Positions 4,236 through 13,219 of a stretch of 64,000 bases of DNA are shown here, piece after piece. Each line of letters begins with the position of its first letter. The stretch's first letter is position 1. The translations under genes and the position numbers were made by a program. Below the pieces are notes generated by a model. The model was not told the DNA's origin and ran no database searches. It saw only the letters and a program-made list of their open reading frames with translations. Source of the stretch: Vicinamibacterales bacterium (GTDB lineage: Bacteria > Acidobacteriota > Vicinamibacteria > Vicinamibacterales > UBA8438); the NCBI GenBank assembly GCA_965207595.1, contig CBDBMW010000012.1:1039466-1103465 (forward strand). The letters are read 5' to 3'.

Positions 4236-4316
4236 CGCTTGGCGGCGAGCGTCACGACCCCATTGGCTAGAATGGCCGGGCCATATCGGCCAGTGCGTTG
4301 GCGTGAGAGGGGCGGA

Positions 4317-5555
4317 ATGATACTCCGTGATGACCAGATCCAAGCCCGCTTCAAGGACCTTCTGAACGCTCACTCCCGCGTGGACATCGCCACGGCATGG
4401 GCCACCTGCGGCGAACACTTGCGCACGTTGGCGGACGCCACGAAACGGGAGCAGAGGCCTGTAGCGGTCCGCGCCATCGTCGGCACGGCGGGGAACGCGA
4501 CGCACCCGGATGCCTTGGAGGAGCTATGCCGCATCACGAATGGCGACCTCAGGATCATCTCGGGCGGGATTCGTCTGTTCCATCCCAAGCTGTACCTGTT
4601 CGGCCGGCATATGAACGGCCACATGGGGTCTCACGCGTGGGTCGGGAGTGCCAACTTTACGAACGCGGGGTTCGGACGCCGCGCTGAGGCCAATGAAGAG
4701 TTGATCGTGGAGACAGGTCCGGGAAAGACCACCGATGATCTCGCCGCCTGGTTCCGAGAACGGTGGAGTTGCTGTCCCACGGATCGTCCCGTTGGGGAAG
4801 TGATTCGTCGGTACAGGGAAGCCTGGAAGCAGAACCCGCCTGGTGCAGATGTCCGAAGGATCATCTCCGGGGACGTCCGGTCCGACCTTCTCGCCGACGC
4901 CCATCGTCCTCGGACTCTTCAGGAGTACCGACAAGCTCTGAAGAGGTGTGAAGGGATGTTGCAGGTCGAAGGAAAGGACTGGGAAGTCCTCAACCCTCAA
5001 GGTCGGAGCTACATGAGGGCTGTATCCGAGCGTCGACGACTACTGCTTGGTGAAGCGCCCTGGTCGCAGCTCGGCGAGTCTCAGCTCCGCCAGCTGACAG
5101 GCGGTGTACCTCGCACGGATTCGAGTTGGTGGGGGCTACTGGGTCGCATGGCCCGGGCCCATCGGAAGGCAGTGCAGGACCACGAGGGCAGGATCCGACG
5201 AATTCTCGCAGAGGTTAAGTCAGCCGAGGATACCGAGTTTCCAGACGTTGCCGTTGCGGCGATGCAGAGGCTAATGAGCATCGACAATGTGGCTCACGGG
5301 ACGGCGACCCTGTTGCTGGCACTTGCACGACCGGACCGACTGCTGAGTCTAAACGGCGCGTCCCAGAAGGCGTACGGCAAGCTGTCCGGGATGAGCCATT
5401 CAACCCTCAGAAAGCCCCGAAACTATCGCAAACTGCTTCAATGGCTCTACGCCCAGCCCTGGTATGCTGACTCGTCGCCGACGGACGGAGACTTGGAGGA
5501 AATCCGCCGGTTCCGCGCGGCTCTCGTGGATGCGTTCGTCTATGAACCGACGTAG
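4317..5555 (+). CDS. Phospholipase D-family (single HxK) putative nuclease with an uncharacterised C-terminal domain
   Basis: LFHPKLYLF ... WVGSANFTNAGF ... NEE; visibly lower GC than the flanks; TAGAAT upstream. Confidence 0.75.
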   Translation: MILRDDQIQARFKDLLNAHSRVDIATAWATCGEHLRTLADATKREQRPVAVRAIVGTAGNATHPDALEELCRITNGDLRIISGGIRLFHPKLYLFGRHMNGHMGSHAWVGSANFTNAGFGRRAEANEELIVETGPGKTTDDLAAWFRERWSCCPTDRPVGEVIRRYREAWKQNPPGADVRRIISGDVRSDLLADAHRPRTLQEYRQALKRCEGMLQVEGKDWEVLNPQGRSYMRAVSERRRLLLGEAPWSQLGESQLRQLTGGVPRTDSSWWGLLGRMARAHRKAVQDHEGRIRRILAEVKSAEDTEFPDVAVAAMQRLMSIDNVAHGTATLLLALARPDRLLSLNGASQKAYGKLSGMSHSTLRKPRNYRKLLQWLYAQPWYADSSPTDGDLEEIRRFRAALVDAFVYEPT

Positions 5556-5732
5556 GATCTTGTGCGGCGTTGGTTCTGGGTATGCCGTGGTCCGGTTCTC
5601 CGCTGCCTCATCGACACGAGATCGCTCCGAGTTCCTGGCGCTCCACTCAGTCCAGATCGGTCCGCGGACAGCGAGAGCCGCCGTCAGCGTGCAGGGTCGC
5701 TCCATTGGGTCAAGGGCGAGGCATTCACGTAA

Positions 5733-5840
5733 CGCGCGCCGGGCGCCACGCTCGACCCGATCGCGAAGCTCCGACGACGCTTCCGAATGCGGGCGCCGAT
5801 CGAGCGCCACGTCGATGAGCACGTCGGTGTCGAGCAGCAT
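5733..5840 (-). pseudogene. Truncated PIN-domain (VapC) toxin
   Basis: [18 protein letters not shown] is a PIN N-terminus coupled to the antitoxin stop (TGATG); PIN-like sequence ends after about 36 codons. Confidence 0.7.
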
Positions 5841-6061
5841 CAGAGGTACTTCCGGGCCAGCACCTCGTAGCGGCCATCGTTCCGGCGCGCCGCCCGGAAT
5901 CGACCCCTCCACCGGAATGCGAACGAGGGGGTGTCCTCTGCCGCGAGCTCTCTGAGCGACGCTTCGATGATCGACGACAGCGACACGCCGCGAGAGCGCG
6001 CGTACTGCTTGGCTCGGGGAAGCAGGTCGGCGTCGACCGTAATCGTCAGCTTCGTCTTCAT
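5840..6061 (-). CDS. Ribbon-helix-helix antitoxin (DUF6364-like)
   Basis: [36 protein letters not shown]; 73 aa, directly upstream of the PIN start. Confidence 0.85.
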
Positions 6062-6129
6062 CGTGGGCCACCGTACGGCCCGCGTTGTATACCGTATTCC
6101 GTCTACCTCGCCCGGCCGCGGGGCGCCGG

Positions 6130-6154
6130 GATCGTACACTGGCCCGCGCGGACC
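6130..6154 (+). repeat. 25-bp direct repeat, copy 1 (contains a TACACT -10-like hexamer upstream of pdxJ)
   Basis: GATCGTACACTGGCCCGCGCGGACC; 24/25 identical to 10038-10062. Confidence 0.8.
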
Positions 6155-7580: not shown

Positions 7581-7967
7581 CTACCAGAGCACGGGCGCCG
7601 GATAGCGGGCGACCTCCTCATCGGGCGTCACGAGCGTGAGTCCGTGCAGGATCGCCTGGGCAACCAGTCCCCGATCGAACGGATCGGCATGGTGCGGCGG
7701 CAGCAGGGCGTCGTGCGCCGCACAGGCTTCGTCGAAGGCCAATGGCTGCAGCCGCAGCCACTCGCGCCGATCGACGACATAGCGGCCGGGCGGCGCCGGC
7801 AGCGACAGCCGACCGAGGCGGTACTTGATCGCGATCTCCCACGCCGACAGCGAGCTCACGTAGACGGCGTTCTCACGGGCGCGGCAGACCCTGCGCGCCA
7901 GCGAGGAGAGCTCCGGCGCGTCAGCCGCCAGCCACAGGAAGGTGCAGGTATCGACCAGCAGCTTCAA
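7581..7967 (-). CDS. vapC: PIN-domain VapC toxin
   Basis: MKLLVDTCTFLW, SSLSAWEIAIK, HHADPFDRGLVAQA, TLVTPD. Confidence 0.92.
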   Translation of the reverse strand: MKLLVDTCTFLWLAADAPELSSLARRVCRARENAVYVSSLSAWEIAIKYRLGRLSLPAPPGRYVVDRREWLRLQPLAFDEACAAHDALLPPHHADPFDRGLVAQAILHGLTLVTPDEEVARYPAPVLW

Positions 7968-8212
7968 GACCGCTCCTTGTCACCTCCGAACGCCCGGAGG
8001 ATGTCGTCCGGAAGCGGCTCGAAGAAACTGTCCGGCACTCTCATTCCACGGTCGATGCCCACCGGCCGCTCCTGCAGCGGCTGCCGCGGCAGGGCGCGTA
8101 TCTCGGCAACCGGGACGTTGCGGCGGCAGAGCACGACGGTCTCACCCCGTTCGACGCTCTCCAGGTACCTCGAGAGGTGAGCTTTCGCCTCGGCAATGTT
8201 GACCTTGAGCAT
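7964..8212 (-). CDS. Phd/YefM-family antitoxin
   Basis: MLKVNIAEAKAHLSRYLESVERGETVVLCRRNVPVAEI; 4-bp overlap with the toxin. Confidence 0.92.
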   Translation of the reverse strand: MLKVNIAEAKAHLSRYLESVERGETVVLCRRNVPVAEIRALPRQPLQERPVGIDRGMRVPDSFFEPLPDDILRAFGGDKERS

Positions 8213-8218
8213 GACCCA

Positions 8219-8248
8219 ATACTAGCTCTTGAACTTGACCATGTTCAA
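8219..8248 (-). promoter_or_regulatory. Toxin-antitoxin promoter/operator, probably leaderless
   Basis: TAGTAT 6 nt before ATG 8212; palindrome TTGAAC-N8-GTTCAA at 8229-8248 covers the -35 region. Confidence 0.6.
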
Positions 8249-8323
8249 CCGAAGTCTTGCGGCGGAGCTGTTCCGGAGCGGATCCGCCGCGCTCGGCCCT
8301 GGCTCCCGGCGTGCGGGCCGACC

Positions 8324-10012
8324 CTACGCGACGCCCAGCACGTCGGCGATCGCTTGCCGCATCCACGCGGTCCTCGCCAGATCGAGGGGCTGCTGGTTGA
8401 GCGGCGCCAGGTAGTCCCCCGGGCGCTGGGTCTTCATGTCGAGGAACGGATAGAAGGTCTCGAAATCGTTCGAAGCCGTGGCCTCGGCGATCTCCCGCAT
8501 CGCGCGGTCCTTCGTCTCCTTCGGGAGCGGCTTGAGGATCTCGTAGCTGTTCCGGCTCCGCTCCAGCGTCATGAGCAGACGGTCGCGGACGGCCGCCATG
8601 CGTTCCCGAATGAGCCGCCGATACTCCGCTTCGTCGAACCCGGACGGCGATGCCTCCGCGAGGTTCTGCGGGTGCAGGAGGTAGCTCTCGATCGAGTAGT
8701 ACCCGAGCACGAAGAGACGCGGCTGCTCGCGTCGCAGCGTCTCGAGCTCCTCGGAACCGATGTAGTCGCGATCGATGAGACCGCGGAGCTCCTCGTTGGC
8801 CCTGATCTGAAGGCCGACCGCGTTCTTGTTCCGGGAGGCAACGAACAGGAAGTCGGGCAGATCGATCGCGTTGTAGAGCGGCGCGTCCGTGTTCTCGCAC
8901 AGTACGAGCGTCTTGTTCGGAAACACCCGCAACGCGGAGTCCCCGGGTACGGCGATGTCGAAGATCTCCGCCGACTTCGGCGAGGGGGTCAGCACCTGCG
9001 GGCGGTCGAAGTCGAGGTCGTCGAAGTCGATGATGGCCGCGTCCGCCGCCTCGCTCGCGTATTCGATGAAGCCGAGCGAGTGGCTGGCCGTCCAGAGCTG
9101 CGAGGAATCCGGGATCCAGTGCTCGACGACTTCCCGAAGGAGGGCGTGCTGGAGACGCGTGTGCAGATGCACGTCGAGCTCGTCGATGAAGTAGATGGCG
9201 TTCGGGAAGTGCTCGTTGCGGATGAAGAGATTGAGGAGGACGTTGAACACTTCCTTCTCGCCGCTGCTGAGCAGGTCGTAGTGGATCTCCGACGCCCCCT
9301 TCCGGAAGCGTATGTCCGGCGGGCGTTCCTCCAGGGCCGCGCTGATCCTCGTCAGGTGCAGTTGCGTCGGAGAGTCGTGGCCGAAGATCCGCGTGAGAGC
9401 CGCATTGACGGGATCGACGAACTTCGCCCGCAGGCGACCGGAATCGAATTCCGATTCCCACACCTCGTCCTGGATGCGCCTCGTCATCTCCGCGACGTCC
9501 GTCTCGAACCGCGTGTCCTGGTCGATGTAGCGGCGCGGGCGGTCGCGGTCGGCGACGACGGGCGCGCCGGCCCCGCGTCCGCGGTGCAGCTCGGGGATCG
9601 TCCGCAGCGAGCTGCGACCGTAGAATGCGGACTTCACGTCCCACTCGGACGGCGAGGCGGCCGCCGGCGCCGCGTCGGATCGGCGGACCTCGAAGCCGCC
9701 GCCGAAGGAACATGCGACCGACATGTCGGCGCTGAGGTCCTTCTTGAGGTAACCCGTGAACCTCGCGTGCTCCTCGCCCTTGTAGAACTCGTCGCTGAAA
9801 TCGTCGTCGCTCCAATCGCCGTCGGCCCGCGGCCCCGCATCGCCCTTGTGGTGCGCGGACAGGTACTCGAACGCGTCGAAGACCGACGACTTGCCGCTGC
9901 CGTTGGCGCCGATCAGCAGCACGAGCTTCGGCGCGCCGGCGCACGACGAAAGATCGATCGTCAGGTCGGTGAAGCGCTTGAAGTTCGCGAGATGCAGCCG
10001 GGTGACGTTCAT
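8324..10012 (-). CDS. ABC-type (AAA_15/AAA_21-like) ATPase fused to a TOPRIM-like (DUF4435/OLD-type) domain
   Basis: Walker A GANGSGKS, signature LSSGEK, Walker B YFIDELDVHLH, TASHS; C-terminal LCENTD, GLIDRDY, YSIESY. Confidence 0.82.
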   Translation of the reverse strand: MNVTRLHLANFKRFTDLTIDLSSCAGAPKLVLLIGANGSGKSSVFDAFEYLSAHHKGDAGPRADGDWSDDDFSDEFYKGEEHARFTGYLKKDLSADMSVACSFGGGFEVRRSDAAPAAASPSEWDVKSAFYGRSSLRTIPELHRGRGAGAPVVADRDRPRRYIDQDTRFETDVAEMTRRIQDEVWESEFDSGRLRAKFVDPVNAALTRIFGHDSPTQLHLTRISAALEERPPDIRFRKGASEIHYDLLSSGEKEVFNVLLNLFIRNEHFPNAIYFIDELDVHLHTRLQHALLREVVEHWIPDSSQLWTASHSLGFIEYASEAADAAIIDFDDLDFDRPQVLTPSPKSAEIFDIAVPGDSALRVFPNKTLVLCENTDAPLYNAIDLPDFLFVASRNKNAVGLQIRANEELRGLIDRDYIGSEELETLRREQPRLFVLGYYSIESYLLHPQNLAEASPSGFDEAEYRRLIRERMAAVRDRLLMTLERSRNSYEILKPLPKETKDRAMREIAEATASNDFETFYPFLDMKTQRPGDYLAPLNQQPLDLARTAWMRQAIADVLGVA

Positions 10013-10213: not shown

Positions 10214-11008
10214 ATGACGAACCCCATCGCCGCCGGCGACCCGGTGGTCGCGGTCGACGGCCTGACGTTCAGCTACGGCAGCGGCGAGGTGCTGCACGGC
10301 ATCTCGTTCGCGGTGCGGCCGGGCGAGGTGGTCGGGCTGCTGGGCCCGAACGGCGCCGGGAAGAGCACGACCATCAGGATCCTGACCGGCATACTGGCGC
10401 CGGGCGGCGGGTCGGTGCGGGTGGCCGGCTGCGCGATGCCCGAGGAGGCGACCGCGGCGAAGAAACGCCTCGGCTACGTGCCGGAGGCGGCGGGGCTCTT
10501 CGAGAGCCTCACGGCAGAGGAATACCTCCAGCTGGTCGGCCGCCTGCAGGAGGTGCCCGAGGACCGGCTGCAGGCGCGCATCGACCGCTTCCTGACGCAG
10601 TTCGGCCTCGCCGAGGACCGGGTCGCGTCGCTCGACACCTACTCCAAGGGAATGCGGCAGAAGGTGCTGCTGAGCGCGGCGCTGCTCCACAACCCGGATC
10701 TCCTGCTGCTCGACGAGCCGCTCTCGGGCCTGGACGTGAACGCCGGCATCATGGTGCGCGATCTCATCGCCGCCCTGGCCGCCGAAGGCAAGGCCGTCCT
10801 CTACAGCTCGCACGTCCTCGACGTCGTCGAGCGCGTCTGCGACCGCGCGCTGATCCTCCACGAGGGGCAGGTGATCGCGGACGGCTCGCTCGACGCGCTC
10901 CGGGCGTCGGCCGAGCGTGGCAGCCTCGAGGACGTCTTCCGGCAGTTGACCGGCACCGAGGGGACGGCGAGCGGGGCGGCCGAGATCGTGGCGGGCCTCC
11001 GGCCGTGA
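10214..11008 (+). CDS. ABC transporter ATP-binding protein (ABC-2/drug-exporter type)
   Basis: GPNGAGKST, YSKGMRQK, LLLDEPLSGLD, YSSH. Confidence 0.93.
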   Translation: MTNPIAAGDPVVAVDGLTFSYGSGEVLHGISFAVRPGEVVGLLGPNGAGKSTTIRILTGILAPGGGSVRVAGCAMPEEATAAKKRLGYVPEAAGLFESLTAEEYLQLVGRLQEVPEDRLQARIDRFLTQFGLAEDRVASLDTYSKGMRQKVLLSAALLHNPDLLLLDEPLSGLDVNAGIMVRDLIAALAAEGKAVLYSSHVLDVVERVCDRALILHEGQVIADGSLDALRASAERGSLEDVFRQLTGTEGTASGAAEIVAGLRP

Positions 11009-11632: not shown

Positions 11633-13219
11633 GAGCCTGCGCCGCAGAACGCCCCGCGGCGTGAACTGGGTTGTCGGTCGAGAACCTGAGTGATCGTAAA
11701 GAGAGCGACGATGGCGATCGGTCGACGACGGGGATTCTCGGCCGAAGAGCGATCCGGACCGCGAAACGGGGTTCTGAGGGCTTCTGGGCCCGTCAGAGAC
11801 CGTGATGCGCGCCGATCGGTCGCTGTCGAGCGTCGTGTTACGCCGCCATCAGCACGTGGAGGCGCTTGACGTTCAGGGCCAGGCACACGAGGACCCACTC
11901 GGCCCGCACGTTCGCCAGCCCCCGGAAGCTGAAGCGCCGGAATCCCAGCACGTGCTTGATCCAGCCGTGCGGGGCCTCCGACAGCCACTTGCGCTCGGCG
12001 TAGGCCGCACGCCCCTCCGGCTTCGACAGCTTCTCGGCCATGCGATTCGTCGCGGGACACTTCTCCGGGTCGCGGGCCTCCGTCTGCTTCCCCTCCCGGC
12101 CCAGCGCCACATACCCGTCCACGCCCCGCTTCTCCAGGTCCGTCAGGTCCCGCTCGTTGCAGTACCCCGCATCGGCCAGCACCGTCTCCGGCTGCGCGTC
12201 GAACGTCTCCTGCACCGCGTCGAGCACCACCGGCAACTCACCCTGGTCGCTCGCGTTCGCCGTCACCTCCGTCGCCACCACCAACTGCCGCTCCGCGTCC
12301 ACCGCCACCTGCGCGTTGTAGCACTGCTGGTACCCCTCGCTGCTCGTCTTCATGATCGAGCTCTCCGGGTCCGTGAAGTTGCTCTGCGCCTTCTCGTCCG
12401 GCTCGCCGTACTCTCGCTTGTACGGCGGACCGCCCTTCGGGTTCCGGTCCTGGCCCGGCTGCCGCCCGCGCGCGTCGTCCGCCGCCCGAGCCGCCGCTTC
12501 CAGGCGCGCCTTCGCTTCCCGGATCGCCTCCAGGCGCGCCTCCCGCCGACGCAACTCCGTCGGCAGGTCATCGCCCCGAACCTCCGGGCCCAAGCGCGCG
12601 TCCTCGGCCTCGTCCACTGCGTCCGCTCGGCGCAACAGCGCCTCGACCTCGCTCTCCAGCCGCCGCTCCTCTTCCTGCATCCGGTCGTAGCTCATCGCCT
12701 TGCGCTTGCTCGCGTTCGCTCGCACCTTCGTCCCGTCGATCGACAGCTTCCCCAAGCGCACCAGACCCAACTCCCGGGCCAGATGGACCACCTCCACGAA
12801 CAGCGCCTGGACATCCGCCAGATGCCGACGCCGGAACTCGCACAGCGTCCGATGTTGCGGAAAGTTGCCCGCCGCCAGCACTCGGAACCCCACGTCTTCT
12901 TCCAGTTTCCGCGCGATCCGCCGCGACGAGAACACCCCCGTCGCGTACGCGTAGAGCAGAACCTTCACCATCATCCGCGGGTCATACGGTGCGTTGCGAC
13001 GGCCGTCCCCCTCGTACGGCGCGTAGAACACCGTCAGGTCCAGCCCGTCCACCAGATCGTTCACGTGATGCGCCAAGTGGCCCTCGGGCAGCCACTCCCG
13101 CACATCCGGCGGCAACAGCAGCGACTGCTCCGGCAAGTAGGGGCGGAATGTCGTCGGCATCGAGTCCTTCCCTCGTCCGCTCACCTAAATTGTCGCATCA
13201 GTTTCTGCGGCGCAGACTC
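11633..13219 (-). mobile_element. IS1182-family insertion sequence, 1587 bp
   Basis: 17-bp TIRs GAGCCTGCGCCGCAGAA (11633-11649) and, reverse-complemented, GAGTCTGCGCCGCAGAA (13203-13219); CTAG on both sides. Confidence 0.9.
11838..13160 (-). CDS. tnp: IS1182-family DDE transposase
   Basis: PYDPRMMVKVLLYAY, SSRRIARKLEED, SIDGTKVRANASK, NFTDPES, YNAQVAVD, VLADAGY, FRRFSFRGL; alternative GTG start at 13184. Confidence 0.93.
   Translation of the reverse strand: MPTTFRPYLPEQSLLLPPDVREWLPEGHLAHHVNDLVDGLDLTVFYAPYEGDGRRNAPYDPRMMVKVLLYAYATGVFSSRRIARKLEEDVGFRVLAAGNFPQHRTLCEFRRRHLADVQALFVEVVHLARELGLVRLGKLSIDGTKVRANASKRKAMSYDRMQEEERRLESEVEALLRRADAVDEAEDARLGPEVRGDDLPTELRRREARLEAIREAKARLEAAARAADDARGRQPGQDRNPKGGPPYKREYGEPDEKAQSNFTDPESSIMKTSSEGYQQCYNAQVAVDAERQLVVATEVTANASDQGELPVVLDAVQETFDAQPETVLADAGYCNERDLTDLEKRGVDGYVALGREGKQTEARDPEKCPATNRMAEKLSKPEGRAAYAERKWLSEAPHGWIKHVLGFRRFSFRGLANVRAEWVLVCLALNVKRLHVLMAA

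What the first reader, a model, noticed from the sequence alone, without database searches (positions are those of the whole stretch)
8324..10012. Single-gene ABC ATPase-TOPRIM fusion, a PARIS/OLD-like defence candidate
Seen: a complete ABC ATPase motif set followed by a domain with E, DxD (DRD) and IESY motifs. Established: PARIS pairs an AAA_15/21 ATPase (AriA) with a DUF4435 TOPRIM nuclease (AriB) and also occurs fused; OLD nucleases have a similar architecture. Inference: an abortive-infection protein, here next to an intact Phd-PIN pair.
Basis: partly seen in the sequence, partly recalled or inferred. Interest (0 to 1): 0.65.

Follow-up and report, generated by a model that had tools for sequence, protein, structure and literature searches.

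The report
Compact fused PARIS-like ATPase-nuclease gene
This gene encodes one 562-residue protein that joins an ATP-driven switch to a distant relative of the tRNA-cutting nuclease of the PARIS anti-phage system; fused PARIS genes are already known, so it is a small, divergent variant of a known defence type, not a new system.

Summary
Window 8324-10012 (minus strand) is one intact 562-aa gene under purifying selection.

- **N-terminal half (residues 1-~325):** a compact AAA_15/AAA_21 ABC ATPase with every motif intact.
- **C-terminal half (residues ~336-562):** no Pfam hit for this protein. Its relatives match the PADLOC AriB/DUF4435 profile (30 of 38). A profile-profile comparison with PF14491-positive DUF4435 proteins gives 93% probability and aligns E373, D414-x-D416 and E442 with the Toprim catalytic residues.
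- **Structure:** the model is confident and has Toprim strand-helix order. Fold searches found no significant match, AriB and OLD included, so the structural test is inconclusive.
- **Distribution:** the gene stands alone, is rare among close relatives (3 of 151 genomes of the order) and is scattered across several phyla.
- **Phd-PIN neighbour:** incidental. The 96% orthologous locus has lost most of it.
- **Module reuse:** the nuclease module forms a sharply bounded family (345 clusters). It is also fused to long ABC ATPases, a LRR-Roc-COR GTPase, receiver domains and unknown domains.

Best reading: a divergent single-chain PARIS-like defence protein activated in cis. The defence role and the substrate are untested.

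The parts
8324..10012 (-). Complete gene, 562 aa plus stop: compact ABC ATPase fused to an AriB-like Toprim module
   Evidence: Full-length homologues at 37-96% identity. dN/dS 0.16-0.26.
9038..10012 (-). ABC ATPase domain, residues 1-~325 (AAA_15/AAA_21 type)
   Evidence: Pfam AAA_15 2.9e-15 and AAA_21 4.2e-15. Best PADLOC matches are AriAB, AriA and PtuA. Foldseek matches PtuA, Rad50 and SMC heads at E 1e-9 to 1e-11.
9887..9910 (-). Walker A, GANGSGKS (residues 35-42, K41)
   Evidence: invariant.
9497..9625 (-). Family-specific invariant motif block: FYGRSxxRxxPxL ... DxDRPxRxIxxDxRFxxD (residues 130-172). The part 136-166 is modelled with low confidence.
   Evidence: Conservation at 95% or more across 39 sequences. 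pLDDT below 50 for 136-166. Function unknown.
9254..9271 (-). ABC signature motif, LSSGEK (residues 248-253)
9161..9196 (-). Walker B and D-loop, IYFIDELDVHLH (residues 273-284; D277, E278, D280)
9077..9091 (-). H-loop, TASHS (H311)
8912..9037 (-). Linker, residues ~326-367, with conserved DFDxLDFD and PxPK motifs. Found only in the ABC-fused architecture.
   Evidence: other architectures start matching at profile position ~34-40.
8663..8911 (-). Toprim-like core, residues 368-450: strand 1 ending in E373, DKN 395-397, strand 3 followed by D414-R-D416, strand 4 followed by I-E442-S-Y and H447-P448
   Evidence: AF2 model with pLDDT 89.6 and four strand-helix repeats. PADLOC AriB model matches 30 of 38 relatives. 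hhalign 93%, E 3.5e-7 against DUF4435 proteins with the acidic residues aligned.
8327..8662 (-). All-helical C-terminal subdomain, residues 451-562, with invariant R487, Y490, K527, W550. It does not align with the C-terminal part of canonical DUF4435.
   Evidence: only the core columns align.

Best explanation
The gene encodes a single-chain, PARIS-like anti-phage protein.

Shown:
- The N-terminal 325 residues are a compact but complete Rad50/SMC-type ABC ATPase of the AAA_15/AAA_21 kind.
- The C-terminal ~230 residues are a divergent member of the DUF4435/AriB Toprim lineage. It keeps the metal-binding acidic set: E373, D376 (most relatives carry this Asp one residue later), D414, D416 and E442.
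- The gene is intact, under purifying selection, always stand-alone, rare among close relatives and scattered across phyla.
- The same nuclease module is reused behind other sensor or switch domains.

Inferred:
- The ATPase acts as the infection sensor and switch, and the Toprim module is a two-metal endonuclease effector.
- Because the two parts are covalently joined, activation cannot work by releasing the nuclease from an ATPase scaffold, as in two-gene PARIS.
- It must instead work in cis, most likely by ATP-dependent head engagement or oligomerisation that unlocks or pairs the nuclease modules.
- By analogy with AriB, the likeliest substrate is tRNA or other RNA, giving translation arrest and abortive infection. 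DNA nicking, as in OLD and GajA, is not excluded.
For: - Intact ATPase motifs and AAA_15/AAA_21 hits.
- The best PADLOC families for the whole protein are AriAB (68.4 bits) and AriA.
- The C-terminal domain alone hits AriB at 1e-4. Among relatives, 30 of 38 hit AriB (best 2.4e-9) and 13 of 38 hit AriAB.
- Pfam DUF4435 is hit by 14 of 30 full-length relatives.
- hhalign against DUF4435 proteins from the same phylum (8 of 9 above the Pfam cut-off, L076 at 25.7 bits): 93%, E 3.5e-7, with E/DxD/E in register. The smaller reference set gives E 0.0045 with the same register.
- The AF2 model is confident (pLDDT 89.6) and places E373 at the end of strand 1 and the DxD after strand 3, as in Toprim.
- dN/dS is 0.16-0.26 in both halves.
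- Present in 3 of 151 genomes of the order, yet in Spirochaetia, Bacteroidota, Chloroflexota and Ignavibacteria.
- No conserved partner gene.
- The module is fused to at least five other N-terminal types, some matching PADLOC candidate defence proteins.
- Merged ariAB genes are documented (PMC9122126, PMC11464382).
Against: - This protein has no Pfam DUF4435 hit even at E<=10, and a six-frame PF14491 search of its genome finds nothing.
- Family profiles do not reach AriB in the PDB by sequence.
- Foldseek with the confident C-terminal model finds no significant match in PDB or BFVD. Neither AriB nor OLD is in the top 50, and the best hits are CheY-like receivers at E~0.1.
- The helical C-terminal half does not align with canonical DUF4435.
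- The ATPase lacks roughly 115 residues relative to AriA, where the coiled-coil and trigger-binding parts lie.
- No phage assay, expression data or defence-island statistics exist. Some homologues sit among ordinary metabolic genes.
Confidence: 0.68

Rival explanations
1. It is a class 1 OLD-type nuclease, like P2 Old or Thermus scotoductus OLD. In that case it is a single-chain ABC ATPase plus Toprim DNA nuclease that nicks or degrades DNA, not a PARIS-type RNase.
For: The overall architecture is the same (single gene, N-terminal ABC ATPase, C-terminal Toprim). The full-length model weakly overlaps GajA and retron Eco8 structures through the ATPase. The PADLOC model 'ATPase-Toprim_I-B' scores 37.8 bits on the ATPase part.
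Against: The C-terminal domain gives no Pfam hit other than a chance Utp14 match at E<=10, so the OLD Toprim model (PF20469, named in PMC11464382) was not matched. PADLOC hits on that domain are AriB and AriAB only. No OLD or GajA chain is among the top 50 fold matches of the C-terminal model.
Confidence: 0.1
2. The C-terminal domain is not a nuclease. It would be a receiver-like or otherwise regulatory alpha/beta domain, and the protein an ATPase with a non-defence role, for example a RecF/RecR-like or SMC-like DNA transaction factor.
For: The best Foldseek hits of the C-terminal model are CheY-like receiver domains (probability 0.7-0.77, E~0.1). RecF gives a weak N-terminal match. Some homologues lie among metabolic genes.
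Against: Pfam Response_reg does not match. The invariant residues are the Toprim set E...DxD...E, and they align with DUF4435. Weak fold hits also include topoisomerase I, DnaG and phage primases, all Toprim proteins. The very patchy distribution (3 of 151 genomes) does not fit a housekeeping role.
Confidence: 0.1
3. It works as one functional unit with the downstream Phd-PIN pair, as a three-gene abortive-infection cassette.
For: All three genes lie on the same strand, with only 111 bp between the gene and phd. Phd homologues lie 0.6-1.8 kb downstream of the gene in L012 and L013. Another homologue sits beside an AbiEii pair.
Against: The 96% orthologous locus L005 keeps the gene intact but retains only the 3' end of the PIN gene, with no phd. 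Most other loci have unrelated neighbours.
Confidence: 0.05

Closest known systems
Merged PARIS (single-gene AriAB; 'merged 1' and 'merged 2' clades of Burman et al. 2024, PMC11464382; first noted in Rousset et al. 2022, PMC9122126)
   Same: One polypeptide with an N-terminal AAA_15/21 ABC ATPase and a C-terminal DUF4435-type Toprim carrying the E, DxD and E acidic residues. It is a stand-alone gene. The length (562 aa) is close to the 570-position PADLOC AriAB profile.
   Different: It scores only 68 bits on one AriAB profile, all from the ATPase part, and about 17 bits on the other. There is no Pfam DUF4435 hit. The helical half of the nuclease module does not align with canonical DUF4435. 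Whether it descends from the published merged clades was not resolved.
Two-gene PARIS of E. coli B185 (AriA + AriB, PDB 8UX9)
   Same: An ABC ATPase sensor paired with a Toprim effector. The AriB catalytic residues E26, D30, D88, E90 and E122 have counterparts E373, D376 (one residue later in most relatives), D414, D416 and E442.
   Different: AriA is about 55 kDa, forms a hexameric scaffold and releases AriB on trigger binding. Here the ATPase is about 325 aa: K41 to E278 spans 237 residues, against K39 to E393 (354) in AriA. The covalent link excludes activation by release. No sequence or fold search reached 8UX9.
Class 1 OLD nucleases (P2 Old, Ts OLD, PDB 6P74) and GajA
   Same: A single chain with an ABC ATPase followed by a Toprim nuclease, with a defence role.
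   Different: There is no match to the OLD Toprim model or to OLD/GajA structures for the C-terminal domain. OLD and GajA cut DNA.

Membership tests
PARIS (AriA/AriB, merged AriAB) | AAA_15/AAA_21-type ABC ATPase with intact Walker A, signature, Walker B and H-loop | tested here: met
   Pfam AAA_15 57.2 bits and AAA_21 57.0 bits, both above their cut-offs. Motifs located and invariant.
PARIS (AriA/AriB, merged AriAB) | DUF4435 (PF14491) domain at the Pfam gathering threshold (27 bits) | tested here: not met
   No PF14491 hit for this protein at E<=10. No hit in a six-frame search of its genome at E<=1. The older PADLOC AriB profile gives 20.5 bits.
PARIS (AriA/AriB, merged AriAB) | Remote homology of the effector domain to the DUF4435 Toprim core, with catalytic acidic residues aligned | tested here: met
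   30 of 38 relatives hit PADLOC AriB, best 2.4e-9. 14 of 30 hit PF14491, best 1.4e-5. hhalign gives 93%, E 3.5e-7 over 85 columns with E373, D414xD416 and E442 aligned to E, DxD and E of DUF4435.
PARIS (AriA/AriB, merged AriAB) | Toprim fold shown by structure comparison with AriB | tested here: inconclusive
   The model is confident (pLDDT 89.6) and has Toprim strand order. Foldseek gives no hit at E<=0.001 in PDB or BFVD, and AriB is not in the top 50.
PARIS (AriA/AriB, merged AriAB) | AriA-type coiled-coil and trigger-binding insertions supporting a hexameric scaffold | tested here: not met
   Judged by length and model only. Walker A Lys to Walker B Glu spans 237 residues, against 354 in AriA (residue numbers from PMC11464382). 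Only a short helical hairpin, 167-210, occupies that position. Oligomeric state was not testable.
PARIS (AriA/AriB, merged AriAB) | Score above the detection thresholds of the merged AriAB profiles | tested here: inconclusive
   PDLC02981 gives 68.4 bits. PDLC02982 gives 17.2 bits on residues 201-562 and less than 33.7 bits on the full length. The thresholds published in 2022 were 80 and 20 (PMC9122126), but how the PADLOC profiles map onto them is assumed. DefenseFinder could not be run.
PARIS (AriA/AriB, merged AriAB) | Phage defence triggered by a phage protein, with tRNA cleavage | not testable with these tools
OLD family, class 1 | OLD-type Toprim domain (Pfam Toprim_Old, PF20469) | tested here: not met
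   The Pfam scan of the C-terminal domain at E<=10 returned only a chance Utp14 hit. No OLD or GajA chain appears among the top 50 fold hits.
CheY-like receiver domain | Match to Response_reg and the conserved phospho-acceptor pocket | tested here: not met
   No Response_reg hit. The fold hits are non-significant, E~0.1. The domain has four strands and the E/DxD/E pattern.

The most novel reading that the evidence does not exclude
The nuclease module may not be a descendant of the published merged AriAB clades. It could be a separate, sharply bounded clade of AriB-like Toprim effectors (345 clusters in 1.84 billion representatives). This clade is self-contained and is licensed in cis by interchangeable switches: short ABC ATPase, long coiled-coil ABC ATPase, LRR-Roc-COR GTPase, one or two receiver domains, and two unknown N-terminal domains. 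In a quick tree the short ABC fusion spans most of the diversity, and the other architectures nest in one supported clade. That would define a PARIS-related effector family whose activation logic (no release from a scaffold) differs from the solved PARIS mechanism.
Probability: 0.35. Interest if true: 0.6.

Novelty: new variant of a known kind. Interest (0 to 1): 0.4.

Why it matters
PARIS is understood mechanistically only for the two-gene form, where the ATPase hexamer releases the nuclease. Fused forms cannot use release, and none has been characterised in the papers I read. This family is abundant in soil, sponge and sediment bacteria. It is annotated only as 'AAA family ATPase', and the Pfam DUF4435 model (one of the profiles used to detect PARIS) does not detect this protein. 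Recognising it would extend defence-system annotation in Acidobacteriota, Spirochaetia and Bacteroidota. It also offers a small (62 kDa) single-chain model for how an ABC ATPase gates a Toprim nuclease. The same module behind ROCO and receiver domains hints at signalling-controlled versions.

Tried and rejected
- **Long ORF.** The 845-aa ORF from the GTG at 10861 was rejected as the gene, because homologues start at the ATG at 10012.
- **Sequence searches of the PDB.** Full-length and C-terminal family profiles found only ATPase heads or chance helical hits. A profile of six Acidobacteriota DUF4435 proteins found nothing either, so no sequence bridge to AriB 8UX9 was obtained.
- **Foldseek.** The full-length model was dominated by the ATPase. 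The C-terminal model gave nothing significant in PDB or BFVD.
- **Conserved partner gene.** Neighbour clustering over 67 loci plus the window gave only lineage-specific synteny.
- **Phd-PIN as part of the system.** Rejected.
- **Promoter and terminator scan.** Nothing useful around the gene.
- **The 353-aa ORF filling the variable spot in L005.** No PDB relative.
- **Tree.** The careful tree search did not finish. Only the quick tree is reported.

Full report
**Observation**

The finding's coordinates hold one gene on the minus strand, with the ATG at 10012 and the stop at 8324-8326, giving 562 aa. A mechanical ORF extends upstream to a GTG at 10861. Every homologue starts at the MNV/MNI that corresponds to 10012, so that is the real start.

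The ABC ATPase motifs are complete:
- Walker A GANGSGKS, residues 35-42
- signature LSSGEK, residues 248-253
- Walker B and D-loop IYFIDELD, residues 273-280
- H-loop H311

Pfam finds AAA_15 (2.9e-15) and AAA_21 (4.2e-15), both above their cut-offs. They are invariant or nearly so in alignments of 38-39 homologues at 30-96% identity drawn from several phyla.

The gene is functional. dN/dS against five orthologues is 0.16-0.26, and it is similar in the two halves.

**What the N-terminal half is**

Among defence-protein profiles the best matches are AriAB (68.4 bits), AriA (63 and 62 bits) and PtuA (60 bits). NCBIfam gives only sub-threshold PtuA, RecF and Rad50 matches.

The full-length AlphaFold model (pLDDT 77) matches PtuA, Rad50 and SMC heads at E 1e-9 to 1e-11.

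The ATPase is compact. Walker A Lys to Walker B Glu spans 237 residues, against 354 in AriA (K39 and E393; PMC11464382). Only a short helical hairpin (167-210) stands where Rad50-like proteins carry a coiled coil.

A family-specific block at residues 130-172 is invariant across phyla: FYGRSxxRxxPxL...DxDRPxRxIxxDxRFxxD. Residues 136-166 of it are modelled with pLDDT below 50. Its role is unknown.

**What the C-terminal half is**

For this protein Pfam finds nothing, even at E<=10. A six-frame PF14491 search of the whole genome is also empty. The domain is nevertheless related to DUF4435/AriB:
- The PADLOC AriB profile hits it at 1e-4. It hits 30 of 38 family members (best 2.4e-9), and AriAB profiles hit 13 and 5 of them.
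- PF14491 is hit by 14 of 30 full-length relatives, best 1.4e-5.
- I fetched PF14491-matching DUF4435 proteins from the same phylum, both stand-alone and ATPase-fused (8 of the 9 used are above the Pfam cut-off). A family HMM aligns their DxD ... (I/V)E(S/N)Y.HP segment.
- hhalign of the enlarged module alignment against those proteins gives 93% probability and E 3.5e-7 over 85 columns. It places E373 on the VEG glutamate, D414xD416 on DxD and E442 on the downstream glutamate. A smaller reference set gives E 0.0045 in the same register.

These positions correspond to the AriB metal ligands E26, D30, D88, E90 and E122 described in PMC11464382.

A separate AlphaFold model of residues 330-562 is confident (pLDDT 89.6, pTM 0.82). 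It shows four strand-helix repeats, with E373 ending strand 1 and the DxD following strand 3, which is the Toprim order. A helical subdomain follows.

Foldseek finds nothing significant in the PDB or BFVD. The best E-values are about 0.1, and the hits are a mix of CheY-like receivers, topoisomerase I, DnaG and phage primases. AriB, OLD and GajA are not in the top 50. Only the Toprim core aligns to canonical DUF4435; the helical half does not.

**Family, distribution and context**

More than 1,600 homologues were found, and the best 120 are mostly 535-565 aa. In the species-representative genomes, full-length relatives occur in several groups:
- Vicinamibacterales
- Blastocatellia and Pyrinomonadaceae
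- Spirochaetia
- Cytophagales and Bacteroidales
- Ignavibacteria
- Thermoflexus
- a deltaproteobacterium

Only 3 of 151 genomes of the window's own order carry it. That patchiness is typical of accessory, horizontally moving genes.

No neighbour is conserved beyond lineage-level synteny. Some loci carry AbiEii, a methyltransferase with a small AAA_21 ATPase, or a PDDEXK protein nearby. Others are surrounded by metabolic genes.

The Phd-PIN pair is intact in the window. In the 96% orthologous locus L005 the sequences diverge about 65 bp after the stop codon. L005 keeps only the 3' end of the PIN gene, followed by about 2.3 kb of other DNA, while the ATPase-nuclease gene stays intact. The adjacency is therefore incidental.

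The window region 4-10 kb has lower G+C than its surroundings (0.64-0.66 in most 1-kb bins, except the pdxJ bin at 0.73, against 0.71-0.75 in the flanks). It also holds a PLD-like nuclease and an orphan antitoxin gene, which gives it a weak defence-island flavour.

**The module elsewhere**

A profile of the C-terminal domain, searched against 1.84 billion representatives, finds only 345 clusters at E<=0.001, of which 151 are at E<=1e-30. It does not reach ordinary DUF4435 proteins, so this is a sharply bounded subfamily.

Besides the ~540-580-aa architecture, the module sits at the C-terminus of other proteins:
- ~900-1050-aa proteins with a long AAA_15/21 ATPase, whose best PADLOC matches are NsnB, PDC-M55A, HEC-03B and AriA
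- a LRR-Roc-COR GTPase
- proteins with one or two receiver domains, matching the PADLOC candidates PDC-M60B and PDC-M60C
- a ~700-aa and a ~220-aa N-terminal region without any family match

In a quick maximum-likelihood tree of the module, the short-ABC form spans most of the diversity. The other architectures fall together in one supported clade (SH-aLRT 96). The root is midpoint only, and the careful search did not finish. I checked that guess independently here.

**Mechanism**

Shown: a complete ABC ATPase is covalently joined to a Toprim-type module that retains its acidic residues, and both halves are under selection.

Inferred:
- The ATPase senses infection and switches the nuclease on.
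- The fusion rules out the release mechanism of two-gene PARIS (PMC11464382).
- Activation is probably in cis, through ATP-driven head engagement or oligomerisation that frees or pairs the nuclease modules.
- By analogy with AriB, a two-metal tRNase that leaves 3'-OH and 5'-phosphate ends (PMC12409363), the target is most likely tRNA or other RNA. I put that at about 0.3. DNA remains possible.

**Comparison and novelty**

Single-gene PARIS fusions are known: 5.2% of genomes carry PARIS in two-gene or fused form (PMC9122126), and two merged clades have been described (PMC11464382). This is therefore not a new kind of system.

It differs from described members in four ways:
- Its score is below the Pfam DUF4435 threshold.
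- Its ATPase is much smaller.
- The helical half of its nuclease module is different.
- The module is reused behind other switches.

I rate it a new variant of a known kind, of moderate interest.

Noticed in passing
window 9497-9625 (residues 130-172): A motif block invariant across phyla (FYGRSxxRxxPxL ... DxDRPxRxIxxDxRFxxD). It lies partly in a segment that AlphaFold models with pLDDT below 50. It occupies about the same residue range as AriA's insertion IS1 (residues 122-180), whose pore-lining residues are poorly conserved in AriA, whereas this block is invariant.
   Followed up: partly
window 7581-8260 versus L005 6750-9100: Indel hotspot just downstream of the gene. The window has an intact Phd-PIN pair. 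The 96% orthologous locus keeps only the PIN 3' end, followed by about 2.3 kb of other DNA that includes a 353-aa ORF without PDB relatives. The arsR-like gene before the VOC gene is present in L005 and missing in the window.
   Followed up: partly
window 4239-5555 (+): A 438-aa protein with an N-terminal PLD-like domain (PLDc_2 1.6e-09; NgoFVII-type 1e-05) and an unassigned C-terminal half. It lies in the same lower-GC stretch.
   Followed up: no
window 5840-6139 (-): A DUF6364/RHH-type antitoxin-like ORF of 99 aa. No intact toxin gene was identified next to it: the downstream PIN-like reading frame (~5400-5830) is interrupted by stop codons.
   Followed up: no
P0185 (843 aa), P0175 and P0187 (355 and 501 aa), P0151 (933 aa), P0155 (424 aa): The same nuclease module is fused to LRR-Roc-COR, to one or two receiver domains (matching PADLOC candidates PDC-M60B and PDC-M60C), and to two N-terminal regions with no family match.
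   Followed up: partly
L082 3646-5517 and 9629-11377; L083 1705-2629: Homologues sit next to a D12-class methyltransferase with a 311-aa AAA_21 ATPase and a AAA-ATPase_like/PDDEXK_9 protein (a Spirochaetia genome). Another sits next to an AbiEii pair.
   Followed up: no
window 11838-13184 (-): A DDE transposase (DDE_Tnp_1, DUF772) lies 1.8 kb upstream of the gene. Earlier notes of the scan describe MITEs derived from it.
   Followed up: no
L075, L076, L077 (Acidobacteriota genomes G034, G285, G181): ATPase-DUF4435 fusions that reach or nearly reach the Pfam threshold. They share the GxxDxD ... (I/V)E(S/A)(I/Y)(Y/L)xHP motif with this family. L076 looks truncated upstream.
   Followed up: partly
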